31,320 nt of DNA. Source: a virus (lineage: Duplodnaviria > Heunggongvirae > Uroviricota > Caudoviricetes). Location: positions 1 through 31,320 of IMG/VR virus record IMGVR_UViG_2734482786_000007, one strand, 5' to 3'. A program made the position numbers and the translations under genes. How positions within the stretch are numbered: position 1 is the first letter of the stretch; each line of letters starts with the position of its first letter. Positions 3,355 through 25,908 of this stretch are shown one piece after another. The notes beneath the pieces are model-generated. The model was given only the letters and a program-made list of their open reading frames with translations, was not told the origin of the DNA and made no database searches.

Positions 3355-3626
3355 GTATTCGTATCGAAATTGGCGAACGTTATGTCGTTACCAGTGACAG
3401 CTTTCAGTTTATTCTCCACGAGAAAAAGAGAGCGGAAAGCGGTAAAAACGCCGGTCATGAATGGCTGGCGGTGGTTGGTTATTACCCGAAATTAAGCCAG
3501 CTCGTTTCCGGCCTGATGCATCACGATATTCTGACCGGAAGCGCAAAATCTTTTGCTGATTTAAACGCGCAGGTTGAGCAACTCAGCAAGCGTTGTTCAG
3601 AGGCTTTTGGCTCATATGGCCGTTAA
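3351..3626 (+). CDS. Hypothetical early protein (91 aa), P2 orf83 position
   Basis: ATG 3351 overlapping the upstream stop (ATGA); GGAG Shine-Dalgarno; immediately precedes and overlaps gene A. Confidence 0.6.
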   Translation: MSIRIEIGERYVVTSDSFQFILHEKKRAESGKNAGHEWLAVVGYYPKLSQLVSGLMHHDILTGSAKSFADLNAQVEQLSKRCSEAFGSYGR

Positions 3627-5889
3627 AGCCTCCGGGCGTTTTGTCCCTCCGTCAGCATTTGCCGCAGGCACCGGTAAGACGTTTACCGGTGCTTATGCAT
3701 GGAACGCGCCACGCGAGGCCGTCGGGCGCGAAAGACCCCTTACACGTGACGAGATGCGTCAGGTGCAAGGTGTTTTATCCACGATTAACCGCCTGCCTTA
3801 CTTTTTGCGTTCGCTGTTTACTTCACGCTATGACTACATCCGGCGCAATAAAAGCCCGGTGCACGGGTTTTATTTCCTCACATCCACTTTTCAGCGTCGT
3901 TTATGGCCGCGCATTGAGCGTGTGAATCAGCGCCATGAAATGAACACCGACGCGTCGTTGCTGTTTCTGGCAGAGCGTGACCACTATGCGCGCCTGTCGG
4001 GAATGAATGACAAGGAGCTGAAAAAGTTTGCCGCCCGTATCTCATCGCAGCTTTTCATGATGTATGAGGAACTCAGCGATGCCTGGGTGGATGCGCATGG
4101 CGAAAAAGAATCACTGTTTACGGATGAGGCTCAGGCTCACCTGTATGGTCATGTTGCTGGCGCTGCACGTGCTTTCAATATTTCCCCTCTCTACTGGAAA
4201 AAATACCGTAAAGGACAGATGACCACGAGGCAGGCATATTCTGCCATTGCCCGTCTGTTTAACGATGAGTGGTGGATTAGTCAGCTTAAAGGCCAGCGTA
4301 TGCGCTGGCATGAGGCGTTACTGATTGCTGTCGGGGAGGTGAATAAAGACCGTTCTCCTTATGCCAGTAAACATGCCATTCGTGATGTGTGTGCGCGCCG
4401 CCAGGCAAATCTGGAATTTCTTAAATCGTGTGACCTTGAAAACAGGGAAACCGGCGAGCGCATCGACCTTATCAGTAAGGTGATGGGCAGTATTTCTAAT
4501 CCAGAAATTCGCCGGATGGAGCTGATGAACACCATTGCCGGTATTGAGCGTTACGCCGCAGCAGAGGGTGATGTGGGGATGTTTATCACGCTGACCGCGC
4601 CGTCAAAGTATCACCCGACACGTCAGGTAGGAAAAGGCGAAAGTAAAACCGTGCAGCTTAATCACGGCTGGAACGATGAGGCATTTAATCCAAAGGATGC
4701 GCAGCGTTATCTCTGCCGTATCTGGAGCCTGATGCGCACGGCATTCAAGGATAATGATTTACAGGTCTACGGTTTGCGTGTCGTCGAGCCACACCACGAC
4801 GGAACGCCGCACTGGCATATGATGCTTTTTTGTAATTCACGCCAGCGTAACCAGATTATCGAAATCATGCGTCGCTATGCGCTCAAAGAGGATGGCGACG
4901 AAAGAGGAGCCGCGCGAAACCGTTTTCAGGCAAAACACCTTAACCGGGGCGGTGCTGCGGGATATATCGCGAAATACATTTCAAAAAACATCGACGGCTA
5001 TGCACTGGATGGTCAGCTCGATAACGACACCGGCAGGCCGCTGAAAGACACTGCAGCGGCTGTTACCGCATGGGCGTCAACGTGGCGCATCCCGCAATTT
5101 AAAACGGTTGGCCTGCCGACAATGGGGGCTTACCGTGAACTACGCAAATTGCCGCGCGGCGTCAGCATTGCTGATGAGTTTGACGAGCGCGTCGAGGCTG
5201 CACGCGCCGCCGCAGACAGTGGTGATTTTGCGTTGTATATCAGCGCGCAGGGTGGGGCAAATGTCCCGCGCGATTGTCAGACTGTCAGAGTCGCCCGTAG
5301 CCCGTCGGATGAAGTTAACGAGTACGAGGAAGAAGTCGAGAGAGTGGTCGGCATTTACGCGCCGCATCTCGGCGCGCGTCATATTCATATCACCAGAACG
5401 ACGGACTGGCGCATTGTGCCGAAAATTCCGGTCGTTGAGCCTTTGACTTTAAAAAGCGGCATCGCCGCGCCTCGGAGTCCTGTCAATAACTGTGGAAAGC
5501 TCACCGGTGGTGATACTTCGTTACCGGCTCCCACACCTTCTGAGCACGCCGCAGCAGTGCTTAATCTGGTTGATGACGGTGTTATCGAATGGAATGACCC
5601 GGAGGTCGTGAGGGCGCTCAGAAGCGCATTAAAACACGGCCTGAGAAGACCAAACCGTCAGCAAAGAAACGGAAGCCCGTTAAAACCGCATGAAATAGCG
5701 CCATCGGCCAGACTTACCCGGTCGGAACGAATGCAAATTACCCGTATCCGCGTTGACCTTGCTCAGAACGGTATCAGGCCGCAGCGATGGGAGCTTGAGG
5801 CGCTGGCGCGTGGGGCAACCGTAAATTATGACGGGAAAAAATTCACGTATCCGATTGCTGAAGAGTGGTCGGGATTTTCCTCAAACTAA
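3616..5889 (+). CDS. A: Rolling-circle replication initiation endonuclease (P2 GpA-like), 757 aa from the ATG at 3616
   Basis: Large protein with the HUH-type metal-binding motif (PHWHMMLF) and an active-site tyrosine region (GYIAKYISKNIDGY) characteristic of P2 A; the N-terminus MAVKASGRFVPP matches my memory of P2 A. The ORF track start at 3574 would overlap the previous gene by 53 nt, so the internal ATG is preferred. Confidence 0.9.
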   Translation: MAVKASGRFVPPSAFAAGTGKTFTGAYAWNAPREAVGRERPLTRDEMRQVQGVLSTINRLPYFLRSLFTSRYDYIRRNKSPVHGFYFLTSTFQRRLWPRIERVNQRHEMNTDASLLFLAERDHYARLSGMNDKELKKFAARISSQLFMMYEELSDAWVDAHGEKESLFTDEAQAHLYGHVAGAARAFNISPLYWKKYRKGQMTTRQAYSAIARLFNDEWWISQLKGQRMRWHEALLIAVGEVNKDRSPYASKHAIRDVCARRQANLEFLKSCDLENRETGERIDLISKVMGSISNPEIRRMELMNTIAGIERYAAAEGDVGMFITLTAPSKYHPTRQVGKGESKTVQLNHGWNDEAFNPKDAQRYLCRIWSLMRTAFKDNDLQVYGLRVVEPHHDGTPHWHMMLFCNSRQRNQIIEIMRRYALKEDGDERGAARNRFQAKHLNRGGAAGYIAKYISKNIDGYALDGQLDNDTGRPLKDTAAAVTAWASTWRIPQFKTVGLPTMGAYRELRKLPRGVSIADEFDERVEAARAAADSGDFALYISAQGGANVPRDCQTVRVARSPSDEVNEYEEEVERVVGIYAPHLGARHIHITRTTDWRIVPKIPVVEPLTLKSGIAAPRSPVNNCGKLTGGDTSLPAPTPSEHAAAVLNLVDDGVIEWNDPEVVRALRSALKHGLRRPNRQQRNGSPLKPHEIAPSARLTRSERMQITRIRVDLAQNGIRPQRWELEALARGATVNYDGKKFTYPIAEEWSGFSSN

Positions 5890-6060
5890 TAATGATGTTT
5901 GACAAAGAGATGTTGATGAGACTAAAAATTTTATTTGTCTGTATAACCATTCGGTTAGAGTACAATAGTTCCGAGTGATAGGAATACAAATAATGACTAA
6001 GTTTTCAACATGCGATTGTTATGGGTTGAATTAAAGGTAAATAACTATGTTAAATAATAT

Positions 6061-6094
6061 AGGGCAAGAGGGTGTTCTTGCCCTTTGTTTATTT
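6061..6094. terminator. Bidirectional intrinsic terminator between gene A and the convergent cargo gene
   Basis: Perfect 8-bp stem AGGGCAAG/CTTGCCCT (6061..6068 and 6077..6084) with an 8-nt loop, followed by TTGTTTATTT on the plus strand and preceded by an A/T run that supplies a U-tract for the minus-strand transcript. Confidence 0.6.
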
Positions 6095-8687
6095 AAGCGG
6101 CGATTTCAATGTTGCTTTTATATTTTAAGAGGGCGTTTTTGGGAACTGCTGGCCAGGCTGAGTATCTATAATAGTTCATATAATCTTTCTCTATCAGTGT
6201 TTTTAGCTGTTTGTTAGCTTGAACTTCATCACCAAGTAAAAAGAATGCACACATGGCCGTAGCCCCTTTTGAATTGTTATGTGCTAAAACTGAATTTATC
6301 TCATTCTTTTTAATGTCTTGCCCTTCTTTTTTCTTGGCAACTTCTCTATTGATTATTAAAACATCTTTTTCCCTGTAATCTTTAATTTTTTCAAGGTTTT
6401 CATTAGCGATTTTAATTGTTTCTTTATAGTTTCCTGCAAGAAGATTGGTATAAGATTTTCCTAAGATATAATCACTAAACCCGTAACCTTTTTCATAAGC
6501 TTCATCAAGAAGAACTATCGCTTTATCATAATCGCCGTTTAAAGATGCAATATCAGATTTTAATTTTAAAATGGTGATTTCTGATTTGTTTCTTGGCAGG
6601 CCATCAATAAACTCCTCTGCCAATTTGATGTTGTTTTTATCAATTAGTAATATGTCTACAATACTGTTTGTATGATTATTTTTCCACGGGCAGTTCATGG
6701 CTTCTTTGACTAATTCAATACCAGCCTTGATGTCCCTGTTGCAGCCTATCTCATATCGAGCTTTAAATATAATGAAAGGAGCAATTCTTGCAATGTCGCT
6801 CTCTTCTTCATATTTATCAATAAAGCCTTTCATCAGGTTGGGAGTGTTTTCATCGAAGTCTGTTTCAAATAAAGATAGATGCAGTTGTGTTAAATATTTT
6901 AATATGTTTCTTTTTTTATTTTTTGATGATGTTTTGTAAGCGTTGGATAATGTATCTATGCATAATAATGTATCTTCTTTCTTTTGCAATGCGCAGGTGA
7001 AATCAGTATATAACGACAAATATGTATCGTGAGTAGGGTTGACCTCTTTTATTTTGTCAAGCAGTTCTTGTATTAATTTATTACAATCTTTCTTATCATG
7101 GCTTGATTGATGTTTTGTCTTTATTGCGTCATATTTTATTCTCCATGCAATATTATCCAGATCACTGCTTTGGAGTAAGCTTTTATCAATTAAATCATGT
7201 ATTTCATCAAAGGTTATTAATTCTTCATCATTATTTTCTAGATGTAGAATAGCAATTCTGCTTAAATGATTCTTAAGATTTATGCTATATGGGAATTTTT
7301 CAAGCAATCCCTTAAGGTAATGTATTTTTGCCTTTAGATCTGTGAATATGTTTGCCCTTGAAAGGGCGTAATTTATATTAAATTCATCAAGAGCTATAAG
7401 ATTATCACTAATTTCTAATGCTGACTTTGTGTCTTTTTGTTCTTCTTTTATTTCAATTAGCCTACGCAGATATTTAGACTTTATATTGTCACTATCAGCG
7501 TTATTGATTAATTCATTCAGTTTTGACTCTGCGTTTAAATAATTTTTATTTCTAATGAGGTTGTCAATGTATAACAAATTCTTAAAATCTTCTTCGGGGA
7601 TCTTTTGATCGTCTAAATCACTTTGGGATAGCTCGTTTATTAATGACGATATGTCATGTGTTAGAGTGTGTTTTTTTAATTTTGAGAGATCAGATTTGAT
7701 AATGCCATTTTTAGATAAGTTGTACTCATCTGTTATAAAGTTTTGGATCATCATCTCTCTTTTTGTGGATTTTTGATTCCCTCCAAAAGAGAGTGCGCAG
7801 CCTAATTCTAGGGCTAGTTCTGCCATCAATTCATCAAAACCTTCTATTTCTACCCAATAAACTTTATCTTGACCTAGAAGCCTAATAAGTTCTGGTGGGA
7901 TGGAGTCATTTTTTCTAACGCACCAGTATACTCCATTTCTTAGATAATCGTCCTGTTTTAATAAATGTTTTAAAACATCCATGATAGAGCTGTCATTGCC
8001 AGCATAACCAACAAAAATAATCCCGTATTCTTTAGTGAATTCAGTTAGTTTTTCACGAGTGTTACCTTCTAATGACTCGGTTTCTTTTAAAGAGCTTTTT
8101 ATGCTATCAAATAAATAATCACCATGTAATTTTATTATTTTTGGCCTTGAAGAAGTAATTGAGACGCCTTTAATTGATGAATCATGTGCACATAATAATG
8201 GTCTGTCAGAAGAAAATTGATAAAATGCTTCATTTATTAAATCGTCAAAATTTGTTGTGAAGACAGTATCAAAAAACTTTGATTCAAATAGTTCAACGAG
8301 ATAAGCATATCCAATTGAAGGTAATTTTTTGTCTACTTGAAGCTCAACAAATCTTCTGCGTTGAGATGGAAGATCAAATTTCTTTTCAAAAAGAGATGAG
8401 TATTCATTGTTTGGGTCGTACCAGACTGGATGGTTTTTGGATAGCCATTTTTTAGCTTCTTCGGCATCGACATATTCTTGATTGGATAGTCTTGTGTATA
8501 TCTCTTCTCTCCATTTCGCTACTAACTCTTGACCAGTTTTTATTCCAGATGTAACGGATGCGCCAGCACCAAGAAAAAGTGAATAGTTAGGTGATGTACC
8601 TGATTTGATTTTTATATAATCAGCTAAATCTTTAACGGTTCTTTTTTTGGCAACCAGTTGTTCCTTGGTAGTATCACGATCAGACAT
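6093..8687 (-). CDS. SIR2-like (DHS-like NAD-binding) domain protein with a long C-terminal helical/TPR-like domain, 864 aa; candidate single-gene anti-phage defence protein
   Basis: N-terminal about 300 aa carry the SIR2_2-type signature: glycine-rich loop FLGAGAS (G40-S44), TTNFDD (N146), KLHGDY (H188), FVGYAGND. The C-terminal about 560 aa are Lys/Asn/Asp/Glu-rich helical repeats (e.g. GDYDKAIVLLDEAYEKG). Strongly AT-rich against the flanking phage genes; own GGAGGG Shine-Dalgarno; sits where P2 carries tin/old. Confidence 0.8.
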   Translation of the reverse strand: MSDRDTTKEQLVAKKRTVKDLADYIKIKSGTSPNYSLFLGAGASVTSGIKTGQELVAKWREEIYTRLSNQEYVDAEEAKKWLSKNHPVWYDPNNEYSSLFEKKFDLPSQRRRFVELQVDKKLPSIGYAYLVELFESKFFDTVFTTNFDDLINEAFYQFSSDRPLLCAHDSSIKGVSITSSRPKIIKLHGDYLFDSIKSSLKETESLEGNTREKLTEFTKEYGIIFVGYAGNDSSIMDVLKHLLKQDDYLRNGVYWCVRKNDSIPPELIRLLGQDKVYWVEIEGFDELMAELALELGCALSFGGNQKSTKREMMIQNFITDEYNLSKNGIIKSDLSKLKKHTLTHDISSLINELSQSDLDDQKIPEEDFKNLLYIDNLIRNKNYLNAESKLNELINNADSDNIKSKYLRRLIEIKEEQKDTKSALEISDNLIALDEFNINYALSRANIFTDLKAKIHYLKGLLEKFPYSINLKNHLSRIAILHLENNDEELITFDEIHDLIDKSLLQSSDLDNIAWRIKYDAIKTKHQSSHDKKDCNKLIQELLDKIKEVNPTHDTYLSLYTDFTCALQKKEDTLLCIDTLSNAYKTSSKNKKRNILKYLTQLHLSLFETDFDENTPNLMKGFIDKYEEESDIARIAPFIIFKARYEIGCNRDIKAGIELVKEAMNCPWKNNHTNSIVDILLIDKNNIKLAEEFIDGLPRNKSEITILKLKSDIASLNGDYDKAIVLLDEAYEKGYGFSDYILGKSYTNLLAGNYKETIKIANENLEKIKDYREKDVLIINREVAKKKEGQDIKKNEINSVLAHNNSKGATAMCAFFLLGDEVQANKQLKTLIEKDYMNYYRYSAWPAVPKNALLKYKSNIEIAA

Positions 8688-8998
8688 TTTCCCTCCATAA
8701 ATTATGTGTGAGAAGTGAGAATAATCCTAGGTGTGGTTATTTTTACATGAAATTCAATGGGTTTTCGTTTTTCTTACATGCGTTTTGTGACTGAGATCAA
8801 GCTATGAGGGAGGAATGTTCTTTTATTGTTCGCTAGAGGCTAATTGGCTAATAAGCTTTTACTAATCGTTTATGATGTACCATAGCGTTGAATGATTTTG
8901 CATGCATTTGTCAGATGTTTACTGATGTTGTTATGTCAGAGCTGGTGCGCTTTAGGTTATTTCATGCAACTGCATTAAAACCACCACATGAAGCGGGC

Positions 8999-9017
8999 GG
9001 GCGAGGCGGGGAAAGCA
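8999..9017. other. cos site (19-nt cohesive-end sequence of P2-type phages)
   Basis: Exact match to the sequence I remember as the P2 cohesive end, GGCGAGGCGGGGAAAGCAC, lying about 160 bp from the 3' end of portal gene Q in a GC-rich non-coding stretch, where cos is expected. Confidence 0.6.
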
Positions 9018-9174
9018 CTGCGCGCTGGCGGTGGTGATGATTTTATTTTTTCAGCGTCTGAGCGCGTCGTGATGGCGTTTAGATTGTGCGCCGGGGCGTT
9101 GGTGTGTCTGCGGGGTGTTTTGTGCGGTGGTGAGCATGTGAGGGTGTAAAAAAGCCGCCCGCAGGCGGCGATGT

Positions 9175-10209
9175 TCAGCCGTTGTCAGTGTCCAGTGAGT
9201 AGTTTTTAAAGCGGATGACCTCCTGACCGAGCCAGCCGTTTATCTCGCGGATCCTGTCCTGTAACGGGATAAGCTCATTGCGGACAAAGACCTTTGCCAC
9301 TTTCTCAATATCACCCAGCGACCCGACGTTCTCCGGCTTGCCGCCCATCAACTGAAAGGGGATGCGGTGCGCGTCCAGCAGGTCAGCGGCGCTGGCTTTT
9401 TTGATATTAAAAAAATCGTCCTTCGTCGCCACTTCACTGAGGGGGATAATTTTAATGCCGTCGGCTTTCCCCTGCGGGGCATAGAGAAACAGATTTTTAA
9501 AGTTATTGCGGCCTTTCGACTTCACCATGTTTTCGCGAAGCATTTCGATATCGTTGCGATCCTGCACGGCATCGGTGACGTACATGATGTATCCGGCATG
9601 TGCGCCGTTTTCGTAATACTTGCGGCGGAACAGCGTGGCCGACTCATTCAGCCAGGCAGAGTTAAGGGCGCTGAGATATTCCGGCAGGCCGTACAGCTCC
9701 TGATTAATATCCGGCTCCAGCAGGTGAAACACGGAGCCGGGCGTGAAAGGTGTCGGCTCGTTGAAGGACGGCACCCACCAGTAAACATCCTCCTCCACCC
9801 CACGGCGGGTATATTTTGCCGGTGAGGTTTCCAGTCTGATGACCTTACCGGTAGTGCTGTAACGCTTTTCCAGAAACGCATTACCGAACACCAGAAAATC
9901 CAGCACAAAGCGGCTGAAATCCTGCTGAGAAAGCCACGGATGCGGGATAAATGTCGAGGCCAGAATATTGCGTTTGACGTAAATTGGTGAGCTGTGATGC
10001 ACGGCAGCACGCAGGCTTTTTGCCAGACCAGTAAAGCTGACCGGTGGCTCATACCATCTGCCGTTACTGATGCACTCGACGTAATCCAGAATGTCACGGC
10101 GGTCGAGTACCGGCACTGGCTCACCAAAGGTGAATGCCTCCATTTTCGGGGCGCTGGCGGTCATTTTTTTTGCCGCAGGTTGCTGTGTTTTCCCTTTTTT
10201 CTTGCTCAT
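9175..10209 (-). CDS. Q: Portal protein (P2 GpQ-like), 344 aa
   Basis: Length identical to P2 Q; first gene after cos, on the minus strand, start overlapping the stop of P; Lys-rich N-terminus. Confidence 0.9.
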   Translation of the reverse strand: MSKKKGKTQQPAAKKMTASAPKMEAFTFGEPVPVLDRRDILDYVECISNGRWYEPPVSFTGLAKSLRAAVHHSSPIYVKRNILASTFIPHPWLSQQDFSRFVLDFLVFGNAFLEKRYSTTGKVIRLETSPAKYTRRGVEEDVYWWVPSFNEPTPFTPGSVFHLLEPDINQELYGLPEYLSALNSAWLNESATLFRRKYYENGAHAGYIMYVTDAVQDRNDIEMLRENMVKSKGRNNFKNLFLYAPQGKADGIKIIPLSEVATKDDFFNIKKASAADLLDAHRIPFQLMGGKPENVGSLGDIEKVAKVFVRNELIPLQDRIREINGWLGQEVIRFKNYSLDTDNG

Positions 10210-11981
10210 CAGTAAAACTCCAGAATGGTGGATGTCAGCGGGGTGCTGATACCGGCGGTGAGTGGCTCATTTAACAGGGCGTGCATGGTCGCCCAGGCGA
10301 GGTCGGCGTGGCTGGCTTCCTCGCTGCGGCTGGCCTCATACGTGGCGCTGCGTCCGCTGCTGGTCATGGTCTTGCGGATAGCCATAAACGAGCTGGTGAT
10401 GTCGGTGGCGCTGACGTCATATTCCAGACAGCCACGGCGGATAACGTCTTTGGCCTTGAGCACCATTGCGGTTTTCATTTCCGGCGTGTAGCGGATATCG
10501 CGCGCGGCAGGATAGAACGAGCGCACGAGCTGGAACACGCCGACACCGAGGCCGGTGGCATCAATACCGATGTATTCTACGTTGTATTTTTCGGTGAGTT
10601 TGCGGATGGATTCAGCCTGAGTGGCAAAGTCCATGCCTTTCCACTGGTGACGCTCAAGTATTCTGAATTTGCCACCGGCCACCACCGGCGGTGCCAGCAC
10701 CACGCATCCGGCGCTGTCGCCACGGTGTGACGGGTCGTAACCAATCCATACCGGGCGGGAGCCGAACGGATTGGCGGCAAACGGCGCATAGTCTTCCCAT
10801 TCTTCCAGCGTGTCGACCATGCAGCGTTGCAGCTCCTCAAACGGGAACACCGACGCCTTGTCGTCAACAAATTCACACATGAACAGGTTTTTAAAATCGT
10901 CGGCGCTGTTTTCGCGTTTGAGCTGCTCAATGTCGAACAGCGTGCAGCCGCCTTTCAGGGCATCCTCAATGGTGACAATCTGCCGCCACTGGCCGTCCGC
11001 ACAGAGAAGCCCACCGGCAAGGGCGTTATGACTGACGTCGATTTCCACGCGTTCGGCGGCGCTGGCGCGTCCCCGGTTAAACAGTTCACCCGACCAGAAC
11101 GGGTAGGCGTCGTGCGCCAGCGTGGACGGGGTGGAGAAATAGGTCGAACGCAGGTGACTCTGTGAGGCCATACCTGATGCCACCTTACGCAGTACCTGAA
11201 AATTCGGGATCCAGAAAATCTCGTCGACGTACAGGTCGCCGTTATGGCTCTGTGCGGTGTTGGAGTTGGTGCCGAGAAAAATCAGTTTTGCGCCGTTATT
11301 GCCCAGGACAATCGGGTCACCGGTCAGGTCAACGTCAACCAGCCGGGCAAAGGCGATGATGTATTCACGGAACACATACGCCTGCGTTTTACTGGCCGAC
11401 AGAAAAATCTGGTTATGGCCGGTTTTCAGGGCGCGCAGCAGCGCCTCGCGGGAAAAATAAAACGTTGCGCCAATCTGACGGGATTTCAGGATATCGCGGA
11501 TGCGGTGCTCAAGCCCGGCGCGATACCAGTGCAACTGATAGTCGAAAGACTGCTCAAAGAAAATCTGCTCCAGCTTTTCGATGGCCTCGTCACTGAAAAA
11601 ATTCTTTTTCGGTTTGCGACGCCCGCCTTTGTTGCGGTTAGCGATGTTCGGATTAAGGTCTGCCTCGTTGCCGGTCTGGCTGTAACGGTTGACCCGTGCC
11701 AGTCGTTCAATCTGGCGTCCCAGCAGGTCAATTTCCTTGAAGTCCCCGCCGGTTTTCTGCGGTTTGATGATGAGCTGGGTCAGCCGCGCTTCCAGACTCA
11801 TTTCGACACGGCTGATGGGGGCAACGCTGTCCCAGCCGTCGCGCTGTTTCCAGCTCTGCACCGTCGGGCGTTTCATCTGCAACATGGCGGCAATCTGCGG
11901 CACGGAAAACCCCTGCCAGTACAGCAGCGCCGCCTGACGACGCGGGTCGTGTAAAAGAGTGGTGTCTGTGGTGATGGTCAT
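10209..11981 (-). CDS. P: Terminase large subunit / ATPase (P2 GpP-like), 590 aa from the ATG at 11981
   Basis: Length matches P2 P when started at MTITTD (GAGG Shine-Dalgarno 6 nt upstream); position between Q and the divergent O gene. Confidence 0.88.
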   Translation of the reverse strand: MTITTDTTLLHDPRRQAALLYWQGFSVPQIAAMLQMKRPTVQSWKQRDGWDSVAPISRVEMSLEARLTQLIIKPQKTGGDFKEIDLLGRQIERLARVNRYSQTGNEADLNPNIANRNKGGRRKPKKNFFSDEAIEKLEQIFFEQSFDYQLHWYRAGLEHRIRDILKSRQIGATFYFSREALLRALKTGHNQIFLSASKTQAYVFREYIIAFARLVDVDLTGDPIVLGNNGAKLIFLGTNSNTAQSHNGDLYVDEIFWIPNFQVLRKVASGMASQSHLRSTYFSTPSTLAHDAYPFWSGELFNRGRASAAERVEIDVSHNALAGGLLCADGQWRQIVTIEDALKGGCTLFDIEQLKRENSADDFKNLFMCEFVDDKASVFPFEELQRCMVDTLEEWEDYAPFAANPFGSRPVWIGYDPSHRGDSAGCVVLAPPVVAGGKFRILERHQWKGMDFATQAESIRKLTEKYNVEYIGIDATGLGVGVFQLVRSFYPAARDIRYTPEMKTAMVLKAKDVIRRGCLEYDVSATDITSSFMAIRKTMTSSGRSATYEASRSEEASHADLAWATMHALLNEPLTAGISTPLTSTILEFY

Positions 11982-12047
11982 GAATACCTCGCCGTGATGA
12001 ATACACGGCAAGGCTACTGAGTCGCGCCCCGCGATTCGCTAAGGTGC

Positions 12048-20841: not shown

Positions 20842-22971
20842 ATGAGCACAAAATTCAAAACCGTTATCACCACTGCCGGTGCAGCAAAGCTGGCAGCAGC
20901 AACCGCACCGGGAGGGCGGAAGGTCAACATTACCACGATGGCCGTCGGGGATGGCGGTGGTAAATTGCCTGTCCCGGATGCCGGACAGACCGGGCTTATC
21001 CATGAAGTCTGGCGACATGCGCTGAACAAAATCAGCCAGGACAAACGAAACAGTAATTATATTATCGCAGAGCTGGTTATTCCGCCGGAGGTGGGCGGTT
21101 TCTGGATGCGTGAGCTTGGCCTGTACGATGATGCGGGAACGTTAATTGCCGTGGCGAACATGGCCGAAAGCTATAAGCCAGCCCTTGCCGAAGGCTCAGG
21201 ACGTTCGCAGACCTGTCGCATGGTCATCATCGTCAGCAGTGTGACCTCAGTGGCGCTGACCATTGACACCACAACGGTGATGGCGACGCAGGATTACGTT
21301 GATGACAAAATTGCAGAACATGAACAGTCACGACGTCACCCGGACGCCTCGCTGACCGCAAAAGGTTTTACTCAGTTAAGCAGTGCGACCAACAGCACGT
21401 CTGAAACACTGGCTGCAACGCCGAAAGCGGTTAAGGCCGCATATGACCTGGCTAACGGGAAATATACCGCACAGGACGCTACCACAGCGCGAAAAGGTCT
21501 TGTCCAGCTCAGTAGTGCCACCAACAGCACGTCTGAAACGCTTGCCGCAACACCAAAAGCGGTAAAAGCAGCATATGACCTTGCTAACGGGAAATATACC
21601 GCACAGGACGCCACCACAGCGCGAAAAGGTCTTGTCCAGCTCAGTAGCGTCACCAACAGCGATTCTGAAACGCTTGCGGCAACGCCAAAGGCGGTAAAGG
21701 CCGCGTATGACCTTGCTAACGGGAAATATACTGCACAGGATGCCACCACAGCGCGAAAAGGTCTTGTCCAGCTCAGTAGCGCCACCAACAGTGATTCTGA
21801 AACGCTGGCTGCAACGCCAAAGGCGGTTAAGACAGCGTATGACCTTGCTAACGGGAAATACACTGCACAGGATGCCACCACAGCGCGAAAAGGTCTTGTC
21901 CAGCTCAGTAGCGCCGCCAACAGTGATTCTGAAACGCTGGCTGCAACACCAAAAGCGGTGAAGTCTGCCAATGACAATGCTGAAAAACGTCTTCAGAAAG
22001 ATAAGAACGGTGCGGATATTCCTGATAAAAGATTATTCCTGCGTAATATCGGCACAACAAATTCAACAACCATATCTTTTAGTGGTGGCGCTGGATGGTT
22101 CAGGCTGGCAACTGTAACCATGCCACAGGCCAGTTCCGTGGTTTACATAAGCCTGATTGGTGGTGCAGGGTATAACGTTGGCTCTCCGCAGCAAACAGGC
22201 ATCTCTGAGCTGGTTCTGCGTGCAGGAAATGGAAATCCAAAAGGTCTTACTGGTGCATTATGGCGACGGACCTCGGTTGGATTTACTAATTTTGCATGGG
22301 TGAATATATCTGGTGATACCTATGATATTTATGTAGAAATAGGTAATTACGCCACGGGTGTTAATATTCAGTGGGATTATACCAGTAACGCCAGCGTAAC
22401 GATTCATACATCACCAACTTATACAGCGAATAAACCAACAGGCCTGACAGATGGAACTGTATATATAATTTACAGTTCGCACATTAAACCAACTGCTGCT
22501 GATGTTGGGGCGTTGTCATTATCTGGAGGTCAATTGAATGGTGCACTGGGCATCGGAACATCCAGTGCTCTTGGCGGTAACTCGATTGTTTTGGGTGATA
22601 ATGACACGGGCTTTAAACAAAATGGCGACGGTAATCTGGATGTTTATGCTAATAACGTCCATGTTATGCGCTTTGTCTCCGGTAGCATTCAAAGTAATAA
22701 AACCATAAATATTACGGGGCGTGTTAACCCCTCGGATTACGGTAACTTTGATTCCCGCTATGTCCGGGATATCCGGCTTGGTGGTGCTGCCACATACAAA
22801 CCTGCGAACAATGGCATGACATGGACACATCAGGCACCGTCCGGGTGTGTATATTCCGGCATTATTGTTCAGGATACCGGCTCAAACTCTGCCGATAACA
22901 TTGGTGGCGTATATTACAGACCGGTTCAGAAATACATTAACGGGACATGGTATAACGTGGCACAGGTATAA
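20842..22971 (+). CDS. H: Tail fibre protein (P2 GpH-like), 709 aa, with internal tandem repeats and an AT-richer C-terminal domain
   Basis: Follows the baseplate genes and is followed by the tail fibre assembly gene G; conserved N-terminal part, repeat block in the middle, compositionally distinct C-terminal part. Confidence 0.88.
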   Translation: MSTKFKTVITTAGAAKLAAATAPGGRKVNITTMAVGDGGGKLPVPDAGQTGLIHEVWRHALNKISQDKRNSNYIIAELVIPPEVGGFWMRELGLYDDAGTLIAVANMAESYKPALAEGSGRSQTCRMVIIVSSVTSVALTIDTTTVMATQDYVDDKIAEHEQSRRHPDASLTAKGFTQLSSATNSTSETLAATPKAVKAAYDLANGKYTAQDATTARKGLVQLSSATNSTSETLAATPKAVKAAYDLANGKYTAQDATTARKGLVQLSSVTNSDSETLAATPKAVKAAYDLANGKYTAQDATTARKGLVQLSSATNSDSETLAATPKAVKTAYDLANGKYTAQDATTARKGLVQLSSAANSDSETLAATPKAVKSANDNAEKRLQKDKNGADIPDKRLFLRNIGTTNSTTISFSGGAGWFRLATVTMPQASSVVYISLIGGAGYNVGSPQQTGISELVLRAGNGNPKGLTGALWRRTSVGFTNFAWVNISGDTYDIYVEIGNYATGVNIQWDYTSNASVTIHTSPTYTANKPTGLTDGTVYIIYSSHIKPTAADVGALSLSGGQLNGALGIGTSSALGGNSIVLGDNDTGFKQNGDGNLDVYANNVHVMRFVSGSIQSNKTINITGRVNPSDYGNFDSRYVRDIRLGGAATYKPANNGMTWTHQAPSGCVYSGIIVQDTGSNSADNIGGVYYRPVQKYINGTWYNVAQV
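21358..21969 (+). repeat. About 4.6 tandem copies of a 132-bp (44-aa) in-frame repeat inside tail fibre gene H
   Basis: Unit LSSATNSTSETLAATPKAVKAAYDLANGKYTAQDATTARKGLVQ recurs with a period of exactly 132 nt (unit starts at 21376, 21508, 21640, 21772, 21904) with a few synonymous and conservative differences between copies. Confidence 0.9.
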
Positions 22972-22974
22972 TTT

Positions 22975-23502
22975 ATGCAGCATTTAAAAAATATTACGGC
23001 GGGTAATCCAAAAACGGTTGAACAATATCAATTGACAAAGGGTTTTGATGTTGTTTGGTTTTTTTCAGAAGATGGTAAGAACTGGTACGAAGAACAAAAG
23101 TATTTTACTGATGATACGATAAAAATAGCGTACGACAAAGATAATATTATCCGCTATGTGGAAAAGGATGTGACAGCTATCAGACCAGATGGATTAAGTG
23201 TTGTTGAAGTGCCGGATATTACTGCTAACCGACGGGCGGACATTTCAGGGAACTGGATGTTTAAGGACGGTACAGTGATTAAACGAATTTATACGGCAGA
23301 GGAATTGCAGCAGCAGGCAGAAAATCGGAAAGCCAGACTTCTAGCAGATGCTGAATCCGTTATTTTGCCGCTGGAGCGCGCTGTCAGGCTGAATATGGCA
23401 ACAGATGAGGAGCGTAGCCGACTGGAAGCATGGGAACGCTACAGTGTTCTGGTCAGCCGTGTGGATCCTGCAAATCCTGAATGGCCGGAAATGCCGCAAT
23501 AA
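22975..23502 (+). CDS. G: Tail fibre assembly chaperone (P2 GpG-like), 175 aa
   Basis: Size identical to P2 G; immediately downstream of H; C-terminal EWPEMP-type tail characteristic of tail fibre assembly proteins. Confidence 0.85.
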
Positions 23503-23891
23503 GTGATATGATCTCTTGTGTTAGTTAACATAGCTATAGTACAGAGTAAGGCCTAATCTGACAGTCCGCTCTGTGCTAGGAGCGGACATTATCAACATCA
23601 TGCTATGTTAATGTATAAAGTGAAGATAAATTGATATAATAAGGCCACCATGAATATTTCAGAACCTTGTCAAAAGGTTTGCACATACTCTAGTCTTGCA
23701 ATGTGTAGTTGATAGTTCCACTGAGGAGGTTCTTCGACATTCTTTATAAAAATGTACATTTCCATCAGTAATAAGAGGTAAAAGGGCTTTAATAGTTTTT
23801 TGTGGATGTTGTTTCTACTCATAAATTTTGAGATAAGTATTGAGTTGAGATAAAGTTAAACTCGTTAAATTCACTTTTAAAAGGATAAAGC

Positions 23892-24419
23892 ATGGACTGG
23901 AAAGATCTTGCATCAACCGCTGTGTATACAGGTATGACTGATGAAAATGAAAGCATATGGGAACGTGTTGATGGGGTTGACGTTGCCTTCATAGGTGCCT
24001 TTCTTACTGCGCACTTGAGCCTTGAAAAGTATATTACTGATTATCTTGGATTAAGATATCCTTCGTTAGCTTGGGGTGATGCAAAACTCACATTTTCACA
24101 AAAAATAGCTTTAATACAACATGAGCCTGCAAAATCCCCTTATGATGAAATATATTTAAGAATAAAAGACTTTAACAGCATAAGAAATAAAATCAGTCAT
24201 CAATTGAATTATCAGATTACGGATAAAGAAAAAAGTAAGTTTGTGGACTTCTACATGAAGATTACTAAAGCCAGTAAAACTAAACCAAATATTGACATTG
24301 ATAACATGGCAGATTTGTTGGATTTTTTCGTATCGATGACGAAATCCTATTTTGCTAGTGCTATTTCTTATTGTCACTATAATAAAAAGCTTGCAGGTAA
24401 AAGTAATAAAATTGATTAA
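23892..24419 (+). CDS. Cargo protein at the Z/fun position, 175 aa, with an HEPN-like R-N-x3-H motif; candidate abortive-infection/defence gene
   Basis: AT-rich ORF with its own AAGGA Shine-Dalgarno, isolated by about 390 bp and 300 bp of non-coding DNA between G and FI; motif I-R98-N-K-I-S-H103 (nt 24183..24200) fits the Rx4-6H HEPN signature. Confidence 0.6.
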   Translation: MDWKDLASTAVYTGMTDENESIWERVDGVDVAFIGAFLTAHLSLEKYITDYLGLRYPSLAWGDAKLTFSQKIALIQHEPAKSPYDEIYLRIKDFNSIRNKISHQLNYQITDKEKSKFVDFYMKITKASKTKPNIDIDNMADLLDFFVSMTKSYFASAISYCHYNKKLAGKSNKID

Positions 24420-24594
24420 TAAAACTGGACTTAGGGATAATTAATATATAGACGTTCTATCATTTTTAGAGTGTGCGGCAGCTCCATACATTCATGCGGA
24501 TGTCAGCACCTCGCTCAAAGCAGACAGTCAGATTTGATAGCGTTTGGACTATGTAAATAGTCAGTTGGAAAATGAGTGAGTACAAATCAGGACA

Positions 24595-24622
24595 GGCGGG
24601 CGAATTGCCCGCCTTTTCTTTA
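24595..24622 (+). terminator. Intrinsic terminator upstream of the FI late operon
   Basis: GC-rich 7-bp stem GGCGGGC/GCCCGCC with loop GAATT, followed by TTTTCTTTAT. Confidence 0.6.
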
Positions 24623-24624
24623 TC

Positions 24625-24645
24625 TGTTGTTTCATCCACTGACCA
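24625..24645 (+). promoter_or_regulatory. Candidate Ogr-dependent late promoter element upstream of FI (imperfect TGT-N12-ACA-like site)
   Basis: CTGTTGT-N12-CCA directly after the terminator and about 90 bp upstream of the FI start; shares the CTGTTGT core with the site upstream of O. Confidence 0.3.
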
Positions 24646-24717
24646 GCCAGGTCAAATAGCGCCTCATACTCTGCACAACAGAAAATAATTGCACCCATTA
24701 ACCACGGAGTTAAACGG

Positions 24718-25908
24718 ATGAGTGACTATCATCACGGCGTGCAGGTGCTGGAGATTAACGACGGCACCCGCGTCATTTCCACCGTATCCACTGCCATTGT
24801 CGGCATGGTCTGCACGGCCAGCGATGCGGATGCGGAAATCTTCCCCCTCAATAAACCGGTGCTGATTACCAATGTGCAGAGCGCAATTGCGAAGGCCGGT
24901 AAAAAAGGCACGCTGGCGGCATCGTTGCAGGCCATCGCCGACCAGTCAAAACCGGTCACCGTTGTCGTGCGCGTGGAAGACGGCACCGGCGACGACGAAG
25001 AAACGAAACTCGCGCAGACCGTTTCCAATATCATCGGCACCACCGACGAAAACGGTCAGTACACCGGACTGAAAGCCCTGCTGGCGGCGGAGTCGGTAAC
25101 CGGTGTTAAACCGCGTATTCTCGGTGTGCCGGGACTGGACACCAAAGAGGTGGCTGTTGCACTGGTATCCGTCTGTCAGAAGCTGCGCGCTTTCGGGTAT
25201 ATCAGCGCATGGGGCTGTAAGACCATTTCCGAGGTGAAAGCCTACCGCCAGAATTTCAGCCAGCGTGAGCTGATGGTCATCTGGCCGGATTTCCTCGCAT
25301 GGGATACGGTCACCAGCACCACCGCCACCGCGTATGCCACCGCCCGTGCGCTGGGTCTGCGTGCCAGAATCGACCAGGAGCAGGGCTGGCATAAAACGCT
25401 GTCCAATGTCGGGGTGAACGGTGTTACCGGCATCAGCGCATCTGTATTCTGGGATTTGCAGGAGTCCGGCACCGATGCTGACCTGCTTAACGAGTCAGGC
25501 GTCACTACGCTGATTCGCCGTGACGGTTTCCGCTTCTGGGGTAACCGTACCTGCTCTGATGATCCGCTGTTCCTCTTTGAAAACTACACCCGCACCGCGC
25601 AGGTGCTGGCCGACACGATGGCTGAGGCGCACATGTGGGCGGTGGACAAGCCCATCACCGCAACGCTGATTCGCGACATCGTTGACGGCATCAATGCCAA
25701 ATTCCGTGAGCTGAAAACAAACGGCTATATCGTGGATGCGACCTGCTGGTTCAGCGAAGAATCCAACGATGCGGAAACCCTTAAGGCCGGAAAACTGTAT
25801 ATCGACTACGACTATACCCCGGTGCCTCCTCTTGAAAACCTGACCCTGCGCCAGCGTATTACCGATAATTATCTGGCAAATCTGGTCACCTCGGTTAACA
25901 GCAATTAA
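24718..25908 (+). CDS. FI: Contractile tail sheath protein (P2 GpFI-like), 396 aa
   Basis: Size identical to P2 FI; GGAG Shine-Dalgarno; followed by the tail tube gene. Confidence 0.9.
   Translation: MSDYHHGVQVLEINDGTRVISTVSTAIVGMVCTASDADAEIFPLNKPVLITNVQSAIAKAGKKGTLAASLQAIADQSKPVTVVVRVEDGTGDDEETKLAQTVSNIIGTTDENGQYTGLKALLAAESVTGVKPRILGVPGLDTKEVAVALVSVCQKLRAFGYISAWGCKTISEVKAYRQNFSQRELMVIWPDFLAWDTVTSTTATAYATARALGLRARIDQEQGWHKTLSNVGVNGVTGISASVFWDLQESGTDADLLNESGVTTLIRRDGFRFWGNRTCSDDPLFLFENYTRTAQVLADTMAEAHMWAVDKPITATLIRDIVDGINAKFRELKTNGYIVDATCWFSEESNDAETLKAGKLYIDYDYTPVPPLENLTLRQRITDNYLANLVTSVNSN

What the first reader, a model, noticed from the sequence alone, without database searches (positions are those of the whole stretch)
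5890..8998. Sharp compositional island marks a horizontally acquired cargo module between gene A and cos
Seen: base composition switches abruptly to AT-rich immediately after the A stop codon (5889) and returns to GC-rich just before the cos sequence at about 8950. The island holds one gene plus about 260 bp of AT-rich upstream DNA and the terminator at 6061..6094. The boundaries coincide with the ends of conserved phage functions, which is what is expected for a swappable cassette.
Basis: seen in the sequence. Interest (0 to 1): 0.4.

Follow-up and report, generated by a model that had tools for sequence, protein, structure and literature searches.

The report
SIR2-TPR cargo in P2 hotspot
The AT-rich island is real and is the well-known swappable cargo slot next to the packaging site of P2-like prophages, here loaded with one untested gene that most likely kills infected cells by destroying NAD+ when its repeat-rich tail senses an invading phage.

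Summary
Observation confirmed. GC falls from 0.53-0.56 to 0.32 within about 50 bp of the gene A stop (5887-5889). It rises again at 8930-9000, just before the 19-nt cos end, which lies at 9000-9018 rather than about 8950.

The island holds a 166-bp filler, a bidirectional terminator (6061-6094), one 864-aa gene (6093-8687, minus strand) and about 270 bp of upstream DNA.

Interpretation supported. Seven P2-like phages match both flanks at 96-98%, lose homology at 5705-5904 and regain it at 8930-8971. Between those points they carry other cargo: old/tin, Fic, paraMORC+Dcm, DUF4238, DUF4209, retron/RT or cdtABC.

Gene A's 3' end occurs at 1934 places in complete E. coli genomes. Only 19 genomes hold this cargo, with alleles 76-99.8% identical (dS up to >2) in backbones that stay 96-98% identical. 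This is the published gpA-gpQ hotspot, and an allele of this cassette is already listed there as 'SIR2_2'.

The protein joins a pAgo-type SIR2 NADase head (invariant S44/N146/D148/H188) to a TPR solenoid. It has no partner gene. Its architecture resembles DSR2, but it is not a sequence-level member of DSR2, SPARSA, Avs5, Thoeris or SIR2-HerA. The likely function, untested, is phage-triggered NAD+ depletion.

Ordinary locus, moderately interesting cargo.

The parts
3616..5889 (+). Replication gene A (replication endonuclease), the conserved left flank. Homology to other P2-like phages ends at 5705-5904, mostly 5868-5904.
   Evidence: RefSeq annotation of the 98%-identical locus L001 (L001 3727-6000 corresponds to window 3616-5889). 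HSP ends.
5890..6055 (.). AT-rich 166-bp filler between the A stop and the cargo module. It is a separate variable sub-segment.
   Evidence: The allele groups at 94.7%, 86.6% and 75.8% identity match only from window 6053/6056 onward. In L003 the segment is replaced by 547 bp that begin with a remnant resembling (from memory, not checked) the start of P2 orf91. No credible ORF and no Rfam hit.
6061..6094 (.). Bidirectional intrinsic-terminator-like hairpin (stem 6061-6084) at the outer edge of the cargo module.
   Evidence: It lies directly after the cargo gene's stop codon (6093-6095) and is included in every allele's homology.
6093..8687 (-). Cargo gene of 864 aa, a SIR2-TPR protein.
   Evidence: ORF. 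Annotated 'SIR2 family protein' in 19 E. coli genomes. dN/dS 0.04-0.14 between alleles.
7788..8687 (-). Residues 1-300: SIR2 (SIR2_2 / immune-type) Rossmann domain, the predicted NADase, with S44, N146, D148 and H188.
6096..7787 (-). Residues 301-864: all-alpha TPR-like solenoid, the predicted sensor or regulatory domain.
8688..8960 (-). About 270 bp of upstream AT-rich DNA carrying the presumed promoter and 5' leader. It is inherited together with the gene.
   Evidence: It aligns across all four allele classes up to cos, with conserved blocks, e.g. the reverse complement of 8886-8912. The consensus promoter scan gives no site here above chance, so the promoter is inferred and not located.
8930..8971 (.). 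Right junction, where homology to P2-like phages with other cargo resumes.
   Evidence: HSP starts at 8930, 8937, 8959, 8962, 8964, 8965 and 8971.
9000..9018 (+). cos 19-nt cohesive end, which is the right end of the mature P2 genome.
   Evidence: Exact motif, single copy. It aligns to the annotated cosR 33575-33593 of NC_001895.
9175..10209 (-). Portal gene Q, the conserved right flank.

Best explanation
The island is the cargo slot of a P2-like (Peduovirus) prophage, the variable gpA-cos/gpQ locus that holds old and tin in phage P2. Cassettes are exchanged there by homologous recombination in the conserved flanks: the 3' end of A on one side, and cos with Q and P on the other. In this prophage the slot holds a self-contained module of promoter region, one gene and a terminator (about 6056-8960), plus a 166-bp filler. 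The gene encodes a stand-alone SIR2-TPR protein. Its conserved N-terminal immune-type SIR2 domain, closest to the SIR2 of short-pAgo SPARSA systems, is predicted to hydrolyse NAD+. Its fast-diverging C-terminal TPR solenoid is predicted to hold the enzyme off until it binds a protein of an infecting phage, as DSR2 and the Avs proteins do. NAD+ depletion would then abort the infection and protect the lysogen population. What is shown: the composition shift, the breakpoints, cargo replacement, rarity of this cargo, purifying selection, domain architecture, catalytic residues and absence of a partner gene. What is inferred: NADase activity, the trigger, the abortive outcome and the anti-phage role. 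My confidence is about 0.95 for the cassette and hotspot part and about 0.6 for the anti-phage NADase mechanism.
For: Composition. Conserved flanks with replaced interior in 7 phages, and breakpoints clustered at 5868-5904 and 8930-8971. The cargo is in 19 genomes, against 1934 places holding the gene A 3' end. Alleles 75.8-99.8% identical (dS 0.006 to >2, dN/dS 0.04-0.14) sit in 96-98% identical backbones. The same slot is used in Enterobacter and Raoultella P2-like prophages. In Citrobacter koseri the gene is kept intact while gpA and gpQ decayed around it. The published hotspot (PMC9122126, PMC9519451, PMC13586616) lists allele WP_124831363 as 'SIR2_2' in the gpA-gpQ locus. SIR2 domain and catalytic S/N/D/H: compared with DSR2 S51/N133/D135/H171 in PMC11850899. 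SIR2 plus alpha-solenoid model, with full-length Foldseek hits to DSR2. Conserved head and variable tail. No conserved neighbour in 33 loci, and the TPR tail is found only with a SIR2 head.
Against: No experiment exists for this family. No paper mentions it or its accessions, and Rousset et al. catalogued it but did not list it among the tested systems. It is not recognised as a complete system by PADLOC v2, where only the SIR2 part matches. dN/dS is low everywhere, so there is no sign of positive selection on the presumed sensor in these pairwise averages. Several hotspot cargoes are not defensive, for example cdtABC or the partition systems, so position alone does not prove defence. The promoter was not located. 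The oligomeric state and the trigger are unknown.
Confidence: 0.65

Rival explanations
1. Vertical passenger, not a cassette. The gene is an old resident of this P2-like lineage, and the composition difference is a property of the gene itself rather than a mark of recent acquisition.
For: Between genera the cargo (71-73% nt) and the phage backbone (74-78%) have diverged about equally. The right junction and the upstream region are collinear in all alleles. The family is AT-rich relative to its flanks in 33 of 33 loci of many phyla, so low GC does not date the acquisition.
Against: Within E. coli, alleles up to 24% divergent (dS >2) sit in 96-98% identical backbones. Only about 1% of gene-A-bearing places have this cargo. 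Seven close relatives carry unrelated genes between the same breakpoints. No sequenced phage record holds the island.
Confidence: 0.15
2. The SIR2-TPR protein is not an anti-phage NADase. It would be a lysogenic-conversion or regulatory enzyme, such as a protein deacylase or ADP-ribosyltransferase acting on host or phage proteins, or a factor serving the prophage's own life cycle.
Against: The sequence belongs to Pfam SIR2_2, and its best matches are defence sirtuins: SPARSA by sequence and ThsA, PsSIR2, KomC and Avs5 by structure. All DefenseFinder-annotated antiphage SIR2 proteins fall in one clade of the SIR2 tree, called SIRim (bioRxiv 10.1101/2024.09.18.613514); placement of this protein in that clade is inferred from its nearest relatives, not tested. 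The effector-plus-solenoid, stand-alone architecture mirrors DSR2. The gene is carried by prophages, integrase islands and an island with an OLD-like nuclease.
Confidence: 0.2
3. The island is a decaying or silent remnant: foreign AT-rich DNA that is tolerated because it is silenced and has no current function.
For: GC of 0.32 is typical of xenogeneically silenced DNA in E. coli (general knowledge, not tested here). No above-chance promoter match was found upstream.
Against: The 864-codon ORF is intact in all 19 E. coli copies and in homologues across phyla. dN/dS is 0.04-0.14. The catalytic residues are invariant. The gene survives intact in a Citrobacter prophage remnant whose A and Q genes are fragmented.
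Confidence: 0.03

Closest known systems
P2 old/tin locus, the gpA-gpQ (cos-proximal) defence hotspot of P2-like phages (Odegrip 2006 as cited; Rousset et al. 2022 PMC9122126; Vassallo et al. 2022 PMC9519451; NAR 2026 PMC13586616)
   Same: Same position between A and cos/Q, the same conserved flanks and breakpoints, and the same one-to-few-gene cargo with its own promoter reading away from cos. The old-tin mRNA of P2 also starts about 150 bp from cosR on the minus strand. An allele of this very cassette is listed in Rousset's Table S5A as 'SIR2_2'.
   Different: The cargo differs from old/tin and from every system those papers tested. The SIR2 gene Rousset et al. tested from the P4 hotspot (pFR88) shows no significant sequence similarity, on the 93 N-terminal residues compared (E 0.53).
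DSR2 (defence-associated sirtuin 2, Bacillus subtilis)
   Same: Single polypeptide with an N-terminal SIR2 NADase carrying the S/N/D/H catalytic set and a long C-terminal alpha-solenoid. Full-length Foldseek alignment at E 2e-8. No partner gene.
   Different: Only 12-14% identity and TM about 0.2. DSR2 is not detected by the family profile at E<=1, and no DSR model was among the PADLOC hits at E<=0.01. The solenoid here is TPR-like rather than HEAT-like, the protein is about 140 aa shorter, and there is no evidence for a tail-tube trigger or a tetramer.
SPARSA / short pAgo-associated SIR2-APAZ (e.g. Geobacter sulfurreducens GsSir2/Ago, PDB 8JKZ)
   Same: It is the closest SIR2 domain by sequence: PADLOC E 2e-59, PDB profile E 1.6e-28, with the TTNFDD and HGD motifs aligned.
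   Different: The match stops at residue about 293-300. There is no APAZ domain, no adjacent pAgo gene, and a TPR solenoid in their place.
Avs5 (AVAST type 5, SIR2-STAND)
   Different: No STAND NTPase: no Walker A motif, and no STAND/NTPase or AVAST model among the Pfam and PADLOC hits.

Membership tests
P2-like gpA-cos/gpQ variable hotspot (old/tin locus) | Lies between replication gene A and the cos site / portal gene Q of a P2-like phage | tested here: met
   A ends at 5889, cos is at 9000-9018 and Q is at 9175-10209.
P2-like gpA-cos/gpQ variable hotspot (old/tin locus) | Flanks conserved among relatives while the interior is replaced by unrelated cargo | tested here: met
   Seven phages have 96-98% flanks and no interior homology. 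Their cargoes are old/tin, Fic, paraMORC3+Dcm, DUF4238, DUF4209, RT/retron and cdtABC.
P2-like gpA-cos/gpQ variable hotspot (old/tin locus) | Any given cargo is present in only a minority of P2-like prophages | tested here: met
   19 genomes hold this cargo, against 1934 gene-A places in 1682 of 5426 genomes.
Immune-type SIR2 (Pfam SIR2_2 / 'SIRim') NADase effectors | SIR2_2 Rossmann domain with the catalytic Asn and His (DSR2 N133/H171 equivalents) | tested here: met
   PF13289, E 4.6e-15. N146 and H188, together with S44 and D148, are invariant in 60 homologues. They align to SPARSA Sir2.
Immune-type SIR2 (Pfam SIR2_2 / 'SIRim') NADase effectors | NAD+ hydrolysis triggered by phage infection | not testable with these tools
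   Needs biochemistry and infection assays.
DSR2 | Sequence-level homology to DSR2 (HMM or profile) | tested here: not met
   No DSR model among the PADLOC hits at E<=0.01. No DSR2 chain at E<=1 with the family profile against the PDB. 12-14% identity in the Foldseek alignment.
DSR2 | Architecture: N-terminal SIR2 plus C-terminal alpha-solenoid in a single gene | tested here: met
   AF2 model. Foldseek full-length hits to DSR2 at E 2e-8. No conserved neighbour.
DSR2 | Activated by phage tail tube protein; tetrameric assembly | not testable with these tools
   No multimer or complex modelling, and no assay.
SPARSA (short pAgo + SIR2-APAZ) | SIR2 domain homologous to pAgo-associated SIR2 | tested here: met
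   PADLOC Aga_SIR2 models, E 2e-59 to 4e-37. PDB 8JKZ, E 1.6e-28.
SPARSA (short pAgo + SIR2-APAZ) | APAZ domain C-terminal to SIR2, and an adjacent short pAgo gene | tested here: not met
   Matches cover only residues 33-293, up to 381 at most. The C-terminus is a TPR solenoid. The island has no second gene, and no neighbour family recurs in 33 loci.
Avs5 (SIR2-STAND) | Central STAND NTPase with a P-loop | tested here: not met
   No Walker A motif. No STAND/NTPase or AVAST model among the Pfam and PADLOC hits.
Thoeris ThsA / SIR2-HerA | SLOG or Macro sensor domain with a ThsB partner, or a HerA partner gene | tested here: not met
   No such domain and no partner gene.
PADLOC candidate PDC-S65 | Full-length match to the PDC-S65 model | tested here: not met
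   Only profile positions 32-341 of 592 match, which is the SIR2 part (E 7e-26).

The most novel reading that the evidence does not exclude
SIR2-TPR is a distinct, widespread stand-alone anti-phage system that has not been validated. The full-length search returned 1732 proteins at E<=1e-5, and matches spanning the whole protein occur in Proteobacteria, Bacteroidota and Verrucomicrobiota, among others. In it, a pAgo-type SIR2 NADase would be gated directly by a TPR sensor rather than by an Argonaute/APAZ module. The deeply diverged alleles circulating in the P2 hotspot would then be specificity variants recognising different phage proteins. Its AT-richness in every genome examined may reflect selection for silencing or low expression of a toxic effector.
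Probability: 0.5. Interest if true: 0.45.

Novelty: new member of a known kind. Interest (0 to 1): 0.3.

Why it matters
The island itself adds nothing new. It is a textbook instance of the P2 gpA-cos defence hotspot, and this cassette is already listed in a published table, untested.

What may be worth bench time is the cargo. It is a compact single-gene module of about 2.9 kb, with its own upstream region and terminator, and it encodes a SIR2-TPR protein family that is widespread yet absent from the defence-system catalogues searched here.

If it is an infection-triggered NADase, it would add a further sensor solution (TPR) to the SIR2 effector toolkit. It would also link the SIR2 of short Argonaute systems to a protein-sensing architecture. 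The naturally occurring alleles, 77-99.8% identical in protein within near-isogenic prophages, would serve as a ready-made panel for mapping trigger specificity.

Tried and rejected
- Sensitive blastn of the island against 50,697 phage records found nothing, so no sequenced free phage carries it.
- NCBIfam has no model for the protein.
- Rfam found nothing anywhere in the window, and there are no credible small ORFs in the two non-coding stretches. A hidden RNA or a second gene is therefore unlikely.
- The sigma-70 consensus scan gives no more promoter-like sites than shuffled sequence (12 against 12.9) and none in 8688-8960. The promoter remains unlocated.
- I looked for a conserved partner gene in 33 full-length loci. 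No neighbour family recurs in more than 3 loci, and the recurring ones looked, by inspection only, like proBA, an integrase, P2 tail genes or regulators.
- I looked for effector swapping on the TPR tail with a full-library phmmer search. Every informative hit has a SIR2 head or is a fragment.
- I tested whether pFR88, the SIR2 gene Rousset et al. tested from the P4 hotspot, belongs to the same family. On the 93 N-terminal residues available it shows no significant similarity.
- I looked for positive selection on the tail with pairwise Nei-Gojobori estimates. dN/dS is at most 0.14 in every segment. Site-wise tests were not run.
- Literature searches for 'SIR2-TPR' and for the four RefSeq accessions returned nothing.
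Full report
**1. The observation**

The window is almost a whole integrated P2-like prophage, running int-C-cox-B-A, then cos, Q, P, O, N and on to D.

A sliding GC profile shows 0.50-0.59 on both sides of a trough of 0.28-0.38 between about 5890 and 8950. Over 5890-8960 GC is 0.324, against 0.531 for the rest of the window. None of 442 other windows of the same length falls below 0.418.

The switch is sharp. In 100-bp windows GC goes 0.55 to 0.34 around the gene A stop (5887-5889). It goes 0.37 to 0.50 to 0.59 between 8950 and 9050. Third-codon-position GC is 0.269 for the island gene, against 0.55-0.71 for A, Q, P, O and N.

The island contains:
- one ORF, 6093..8687 on the minus strand, 864 aa;
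- a strong hairpin at 6061-6084 with T-runs on both strands;
- 166 bp of filler (5890-6055);
- about 270 bp upstream of the gene (8688-8960).

There are no other credible ORFs in the non-coding stretches and no Rfam family anywhere in the window.

The 19-nt cohesive end is at 9000-9018, and conserved phage sequence resumes at 8930-8971.

**2. Is it a swappable cassette?**

Megablast of 3500-12000 against 50,697 phage records finds 130 P2-like records. The best cover only 61-64% of the query at 96-98% identity, which corresponds to the two flanks. The island itself has no match in any phage record, even with word-11 blastn.

I fetched seven relatives and mapped HSP ends. Left homology stops at 5705 (pro483), 5868, 5868, 5876, 5879, 5902 and 5904. 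Right homology restarts at 8930, 8937, 8959, 8962, 8964, 8965 and 8971. For P2 itself the match runs 8971-9018 and ends at the annotated cosR.

Between these points the relatives carry:
- orf91-tin-old (P2);
- a Fic/VbhT protein (STYP1);
- Dcm plus paraMORC3 (PhiR44_1);
- DUF4238 (pro483);
- DUF4209 (569R9);
- an RT, plus a retron on the other side of cos (pro147);
- cdtABC (P2-T22).

In 5426 complete E. coli genomes the last 660 bp of gene A occur at 1934 places in 1682 genomes. The island is present at 80% coverage or more in only 19 genomes. Every one of the four copies I inspected lies between the replication endonuclease and the portal gene of a P2-like prophage.

This locus is the published 'gpA-gpQ' hotspot. 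Rousset et al. 2022 found 1,650 gene arrangements in 18,150 loci. Vassallo et al. 2022 call it P2 defence hotspot #1. A 2026 NAR paper analyses swapping at these hotspots. Rousset's Table S5A lists 'SIR2_2 WP_124831363' at this locus. That protein is the allele in my locus L004.

**3. Cassette exchange versus vertical descent**

The 19 E. coli copies fall into allele classes at 99.8, 94.7, 91.9, 86.6 and 75.8% nucleotide identity to the window. For four of these classes I computed Nei-Gojobori distances:

| Allele identity | dS | dN/dS |
|---|---|---|
| 99.8% | 0.006 | 0.17 |
| 91.8% | 0.32 | 0.12 |
| 86.9% | 0.63 | 0.10 |
| 75.8% | 2.3 | 0.06 |

The flanking A and Q/P DNA of the same prophages stays 96-98% identical. 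Such a contrast cannot arise by in-situ divergence, so it requires recombinational import of diverged alleles through the conserved flanks.

The cargo is also an old associate of the lineage. In Enterobacter mori and Raoultella terrigena it sits in the same slot of P2-like prophages. There, backbone identity to the window (74-78%) is similar to cargo identity (71-73%).

In Citrobacter koseri the gene is intact, but it is flanked only by fragmented gpQ and gpA remnants that the gene caller no longer calls. In Atlantibacter it lies next to a 60-bp cos-like stretch, a Q fragment, integrases and an OLD-like nuclease. Retention of defence genes in decayed P2 prophages is also described in the 2026 paper.

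The module has an internal structure. The allele classes at 94.7% and below share homology only from 6053/6056, the outer foot of the terminator. So 5890-6055 is a separate, replaceable filler. In strain F5505-C1 it is replaced by 547 bp that begin with what looks, from memory and unchecked, like a remnant of P2 orf91. The upstream region is collinear in all alleles up to cos and has conserved blocks.

**4. The low GC is not a donor signature**

In 33 full-length homologous loci the gene is AT-richer than its surroundings in every case. These loci come from Enterobacterales, Vibrio, Aeromonas, Pseudomonas, Acinetobacter, Stenotrophomonas, Betaproteobacteria, Bacteroidota, Verrucomicrobiota and SAR324.

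The mean difference is -0.166, and it reaches -0.32 in Aeromonas. The composition is therefore a property of the family, through perpetual mobility, selection, or both. It does not point to a particular low-GC source.

**5. The cargo protein**

- **Family searches.** Pfam finds only SIR2_2 (residues 141-261, E 4.6e-15), and NCBIfam finds nothing.
- **PADLOC.** The best hits are the SIR2 proteins associated with short pAgos, but they cover only residues 33-293 (E 2e-59). Candidate PDC-S65 also matches only through its SIR2 part. No DSR, Thoeris, SIR2-HerA or AVAST model is among the hits.
- **PDB by sequence.** Both the single sequence and a 60-member family profile see only the Sir2 subunit of SPARSA (8JKZ and relatives; E 1e-23 to 1.6e-28), plus generic TPR proteins for the tail. 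DSR2, ThsA and Avs5 are not seen at E<=1.
- **Catalytic residues.** In the alignment to SPARSA Sir2, the TTNFDD and HGD motifs coincide. S44, N146, D148 and H188 are invariant in 60 homologues. They correspond to the S51/N133/D135/H171 catalytic set of DSR2 (PMC11850899).
- **Structure model.** An AlphaFold2 model (mean pLDDT 84, tail mostly above 85) shows a Rossmann-type head (residues 1-300) and about 30 helices forming a solenoid (308-856).
- **NTPase.** There is no Walker A motif.
- **Conservation pattern.** The head is conserved and the tail is variable: mean pairwise identity is 0.69 against 0.35. Between the E. coli alleles, protein identity is 88-98% in the head against 67-87% in the last third.

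**6. Family and context**

The large protein database returns 1732 hits at E<=1e-5. The top 120 are almost all 860-890 aa and are named only 'SIR2 family protein'.

A genome scan returns full-length relatives in many phyla. None of 33 loci shares a neighbour family with more than two others. The recurrent neighbours looked, by inspection only, like proBA, a P4-type integrase, P2-like tail genes or regulators. The gene therefore works alone and is often carried by mobile elements.

A full-library phmmer search with the tail alone finds 125 clusters. The informative ones all have the match starting near residue 305 of an 840-930 aa protein. The shorter ones carry a truncated SIR2_2 domain, TPR motifs only, or no Pfam domain. 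The tail is thus not shared with other effector domains, as far as a single-sequence search can see.

**7. Most likely mechanism**

By architecture the protein matches the 'effector head plus repeat sensor' design of DSR2 and the Avs proteins. The most likely mechanism is this: the TPR solenoid keeps the SIR2 head inactive until it binds a phage-encoded protein. The head then hydrolyses NAD+, and the infected lysogen dies or stalls before the invader completes its cycle.

Enzymatic activity, trigger, oligomerisation and phenotype are all inferred. Nothing in the literature library mentions this family or its accessions. The SIR2 gene that Rousset et al. did test came from the P4 hotspot. It shows no significant similarity on the 93 N-terminal residues compared.

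The rivals are a non-defensive sirtuin function, pure vertical inheritance, and silent junk. They are weighed in the Rival explanations section; the last is contradicted by strong purifying selection and by retention of the gene in a decayed prophage.

**8. Comparison with known systems and verdict**

As a locus, this is a member of the known P2 gpA-cos hotspot, and all three defining features were tested and met.

As a protein, it works like DSR2 but fails sequence-level membership. It shares its SIR2 domain with SPARSA but lacks APAZ and pAgo. It lacks the STAND module of Avs5 and the partners of Thoeris and SIR2-HerA.

It is best described as a new, unvalidated member of the class of stand-alone SIR2-effector defence proteins, riding in an already known cargo slot. 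Interest is modest. A specialist would not be surprised by the island. The widespread, uncharacterised SIR2-TPR family, with a natural allele series in near-isogenic prophages, is a reasonable experimental target.

Noticed in passing
window 23550-24650: There is a second AT-rich island (GC 0.34 against 0.55-0.59) between the tail-fibre assembly gene (22975-23502, Caudo_TAP) and the next large ORF downstream (24718-25908, presumably the sheath gene FI; not searched). This is the position of the P2 Z/fun locus, 'P2 defence hotspot #2'. It holds one 175-aa ORF (23892-24419, plus strand; GC3 0.28) with no Pfam or PADLOC hit. Only one of 50,697 phage records, P2-like vB_EcoM-569R9, has it, at 90% identity.
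   Followed up: partly
window 9026-9251; L010 5159-7473: Phage pro147 carries extra cargo, a retron Ec48-type RT plus effector, between cos and the portal gene Q. The short cos-Q spacer is therefore a further insertion point, distinct from the A-cos slot.
   Followed up: no
L012 6749-7721 and 10678-12067: In Citrobacter koseri an intact SIR2-TPR homologue (72% aa identity) is flanked by fragmented, uncalled remnants of gpQ and gpA. It looks like a decayed P2-like prophage that kept only its cargo gene, and it sits next to a HicAB pair.
   Followed up: partly
L003 5454-6001: In E. coli F5505-C1 the filler between gene A and the SIR2 module is 547 bp instead of 166 bp. It begins with a short ORF (MAKIHEVKLHAKYFDLVL...) that resembles, from memory and without a check, the start of P2 orf91 (DUF3850). 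It may be a scar of an earlier cargo arrangement.
   Followed up: no
33 loci L012-L079 (gene versus flanks): The SIR2-TPR gene is AT-richer than its neighbourhood in 33 of 33 genomes spanning several phyla, by 7 to 32 GC points. The reason is unexplained: constant horizontal transfer, selection for silencing, or a bias from its amino-acid composition.
   Followed up: partly
window 22100-23500: The 3' part of the tail-fibre gene H (20842-22971) and the tail-fibre assembly gene that follows it (22975-23502) have intermediate GC (0.42-0.45). This may reflect mosaic host-range modules in P2-like phages, which was not tested here.
   Followed up: no
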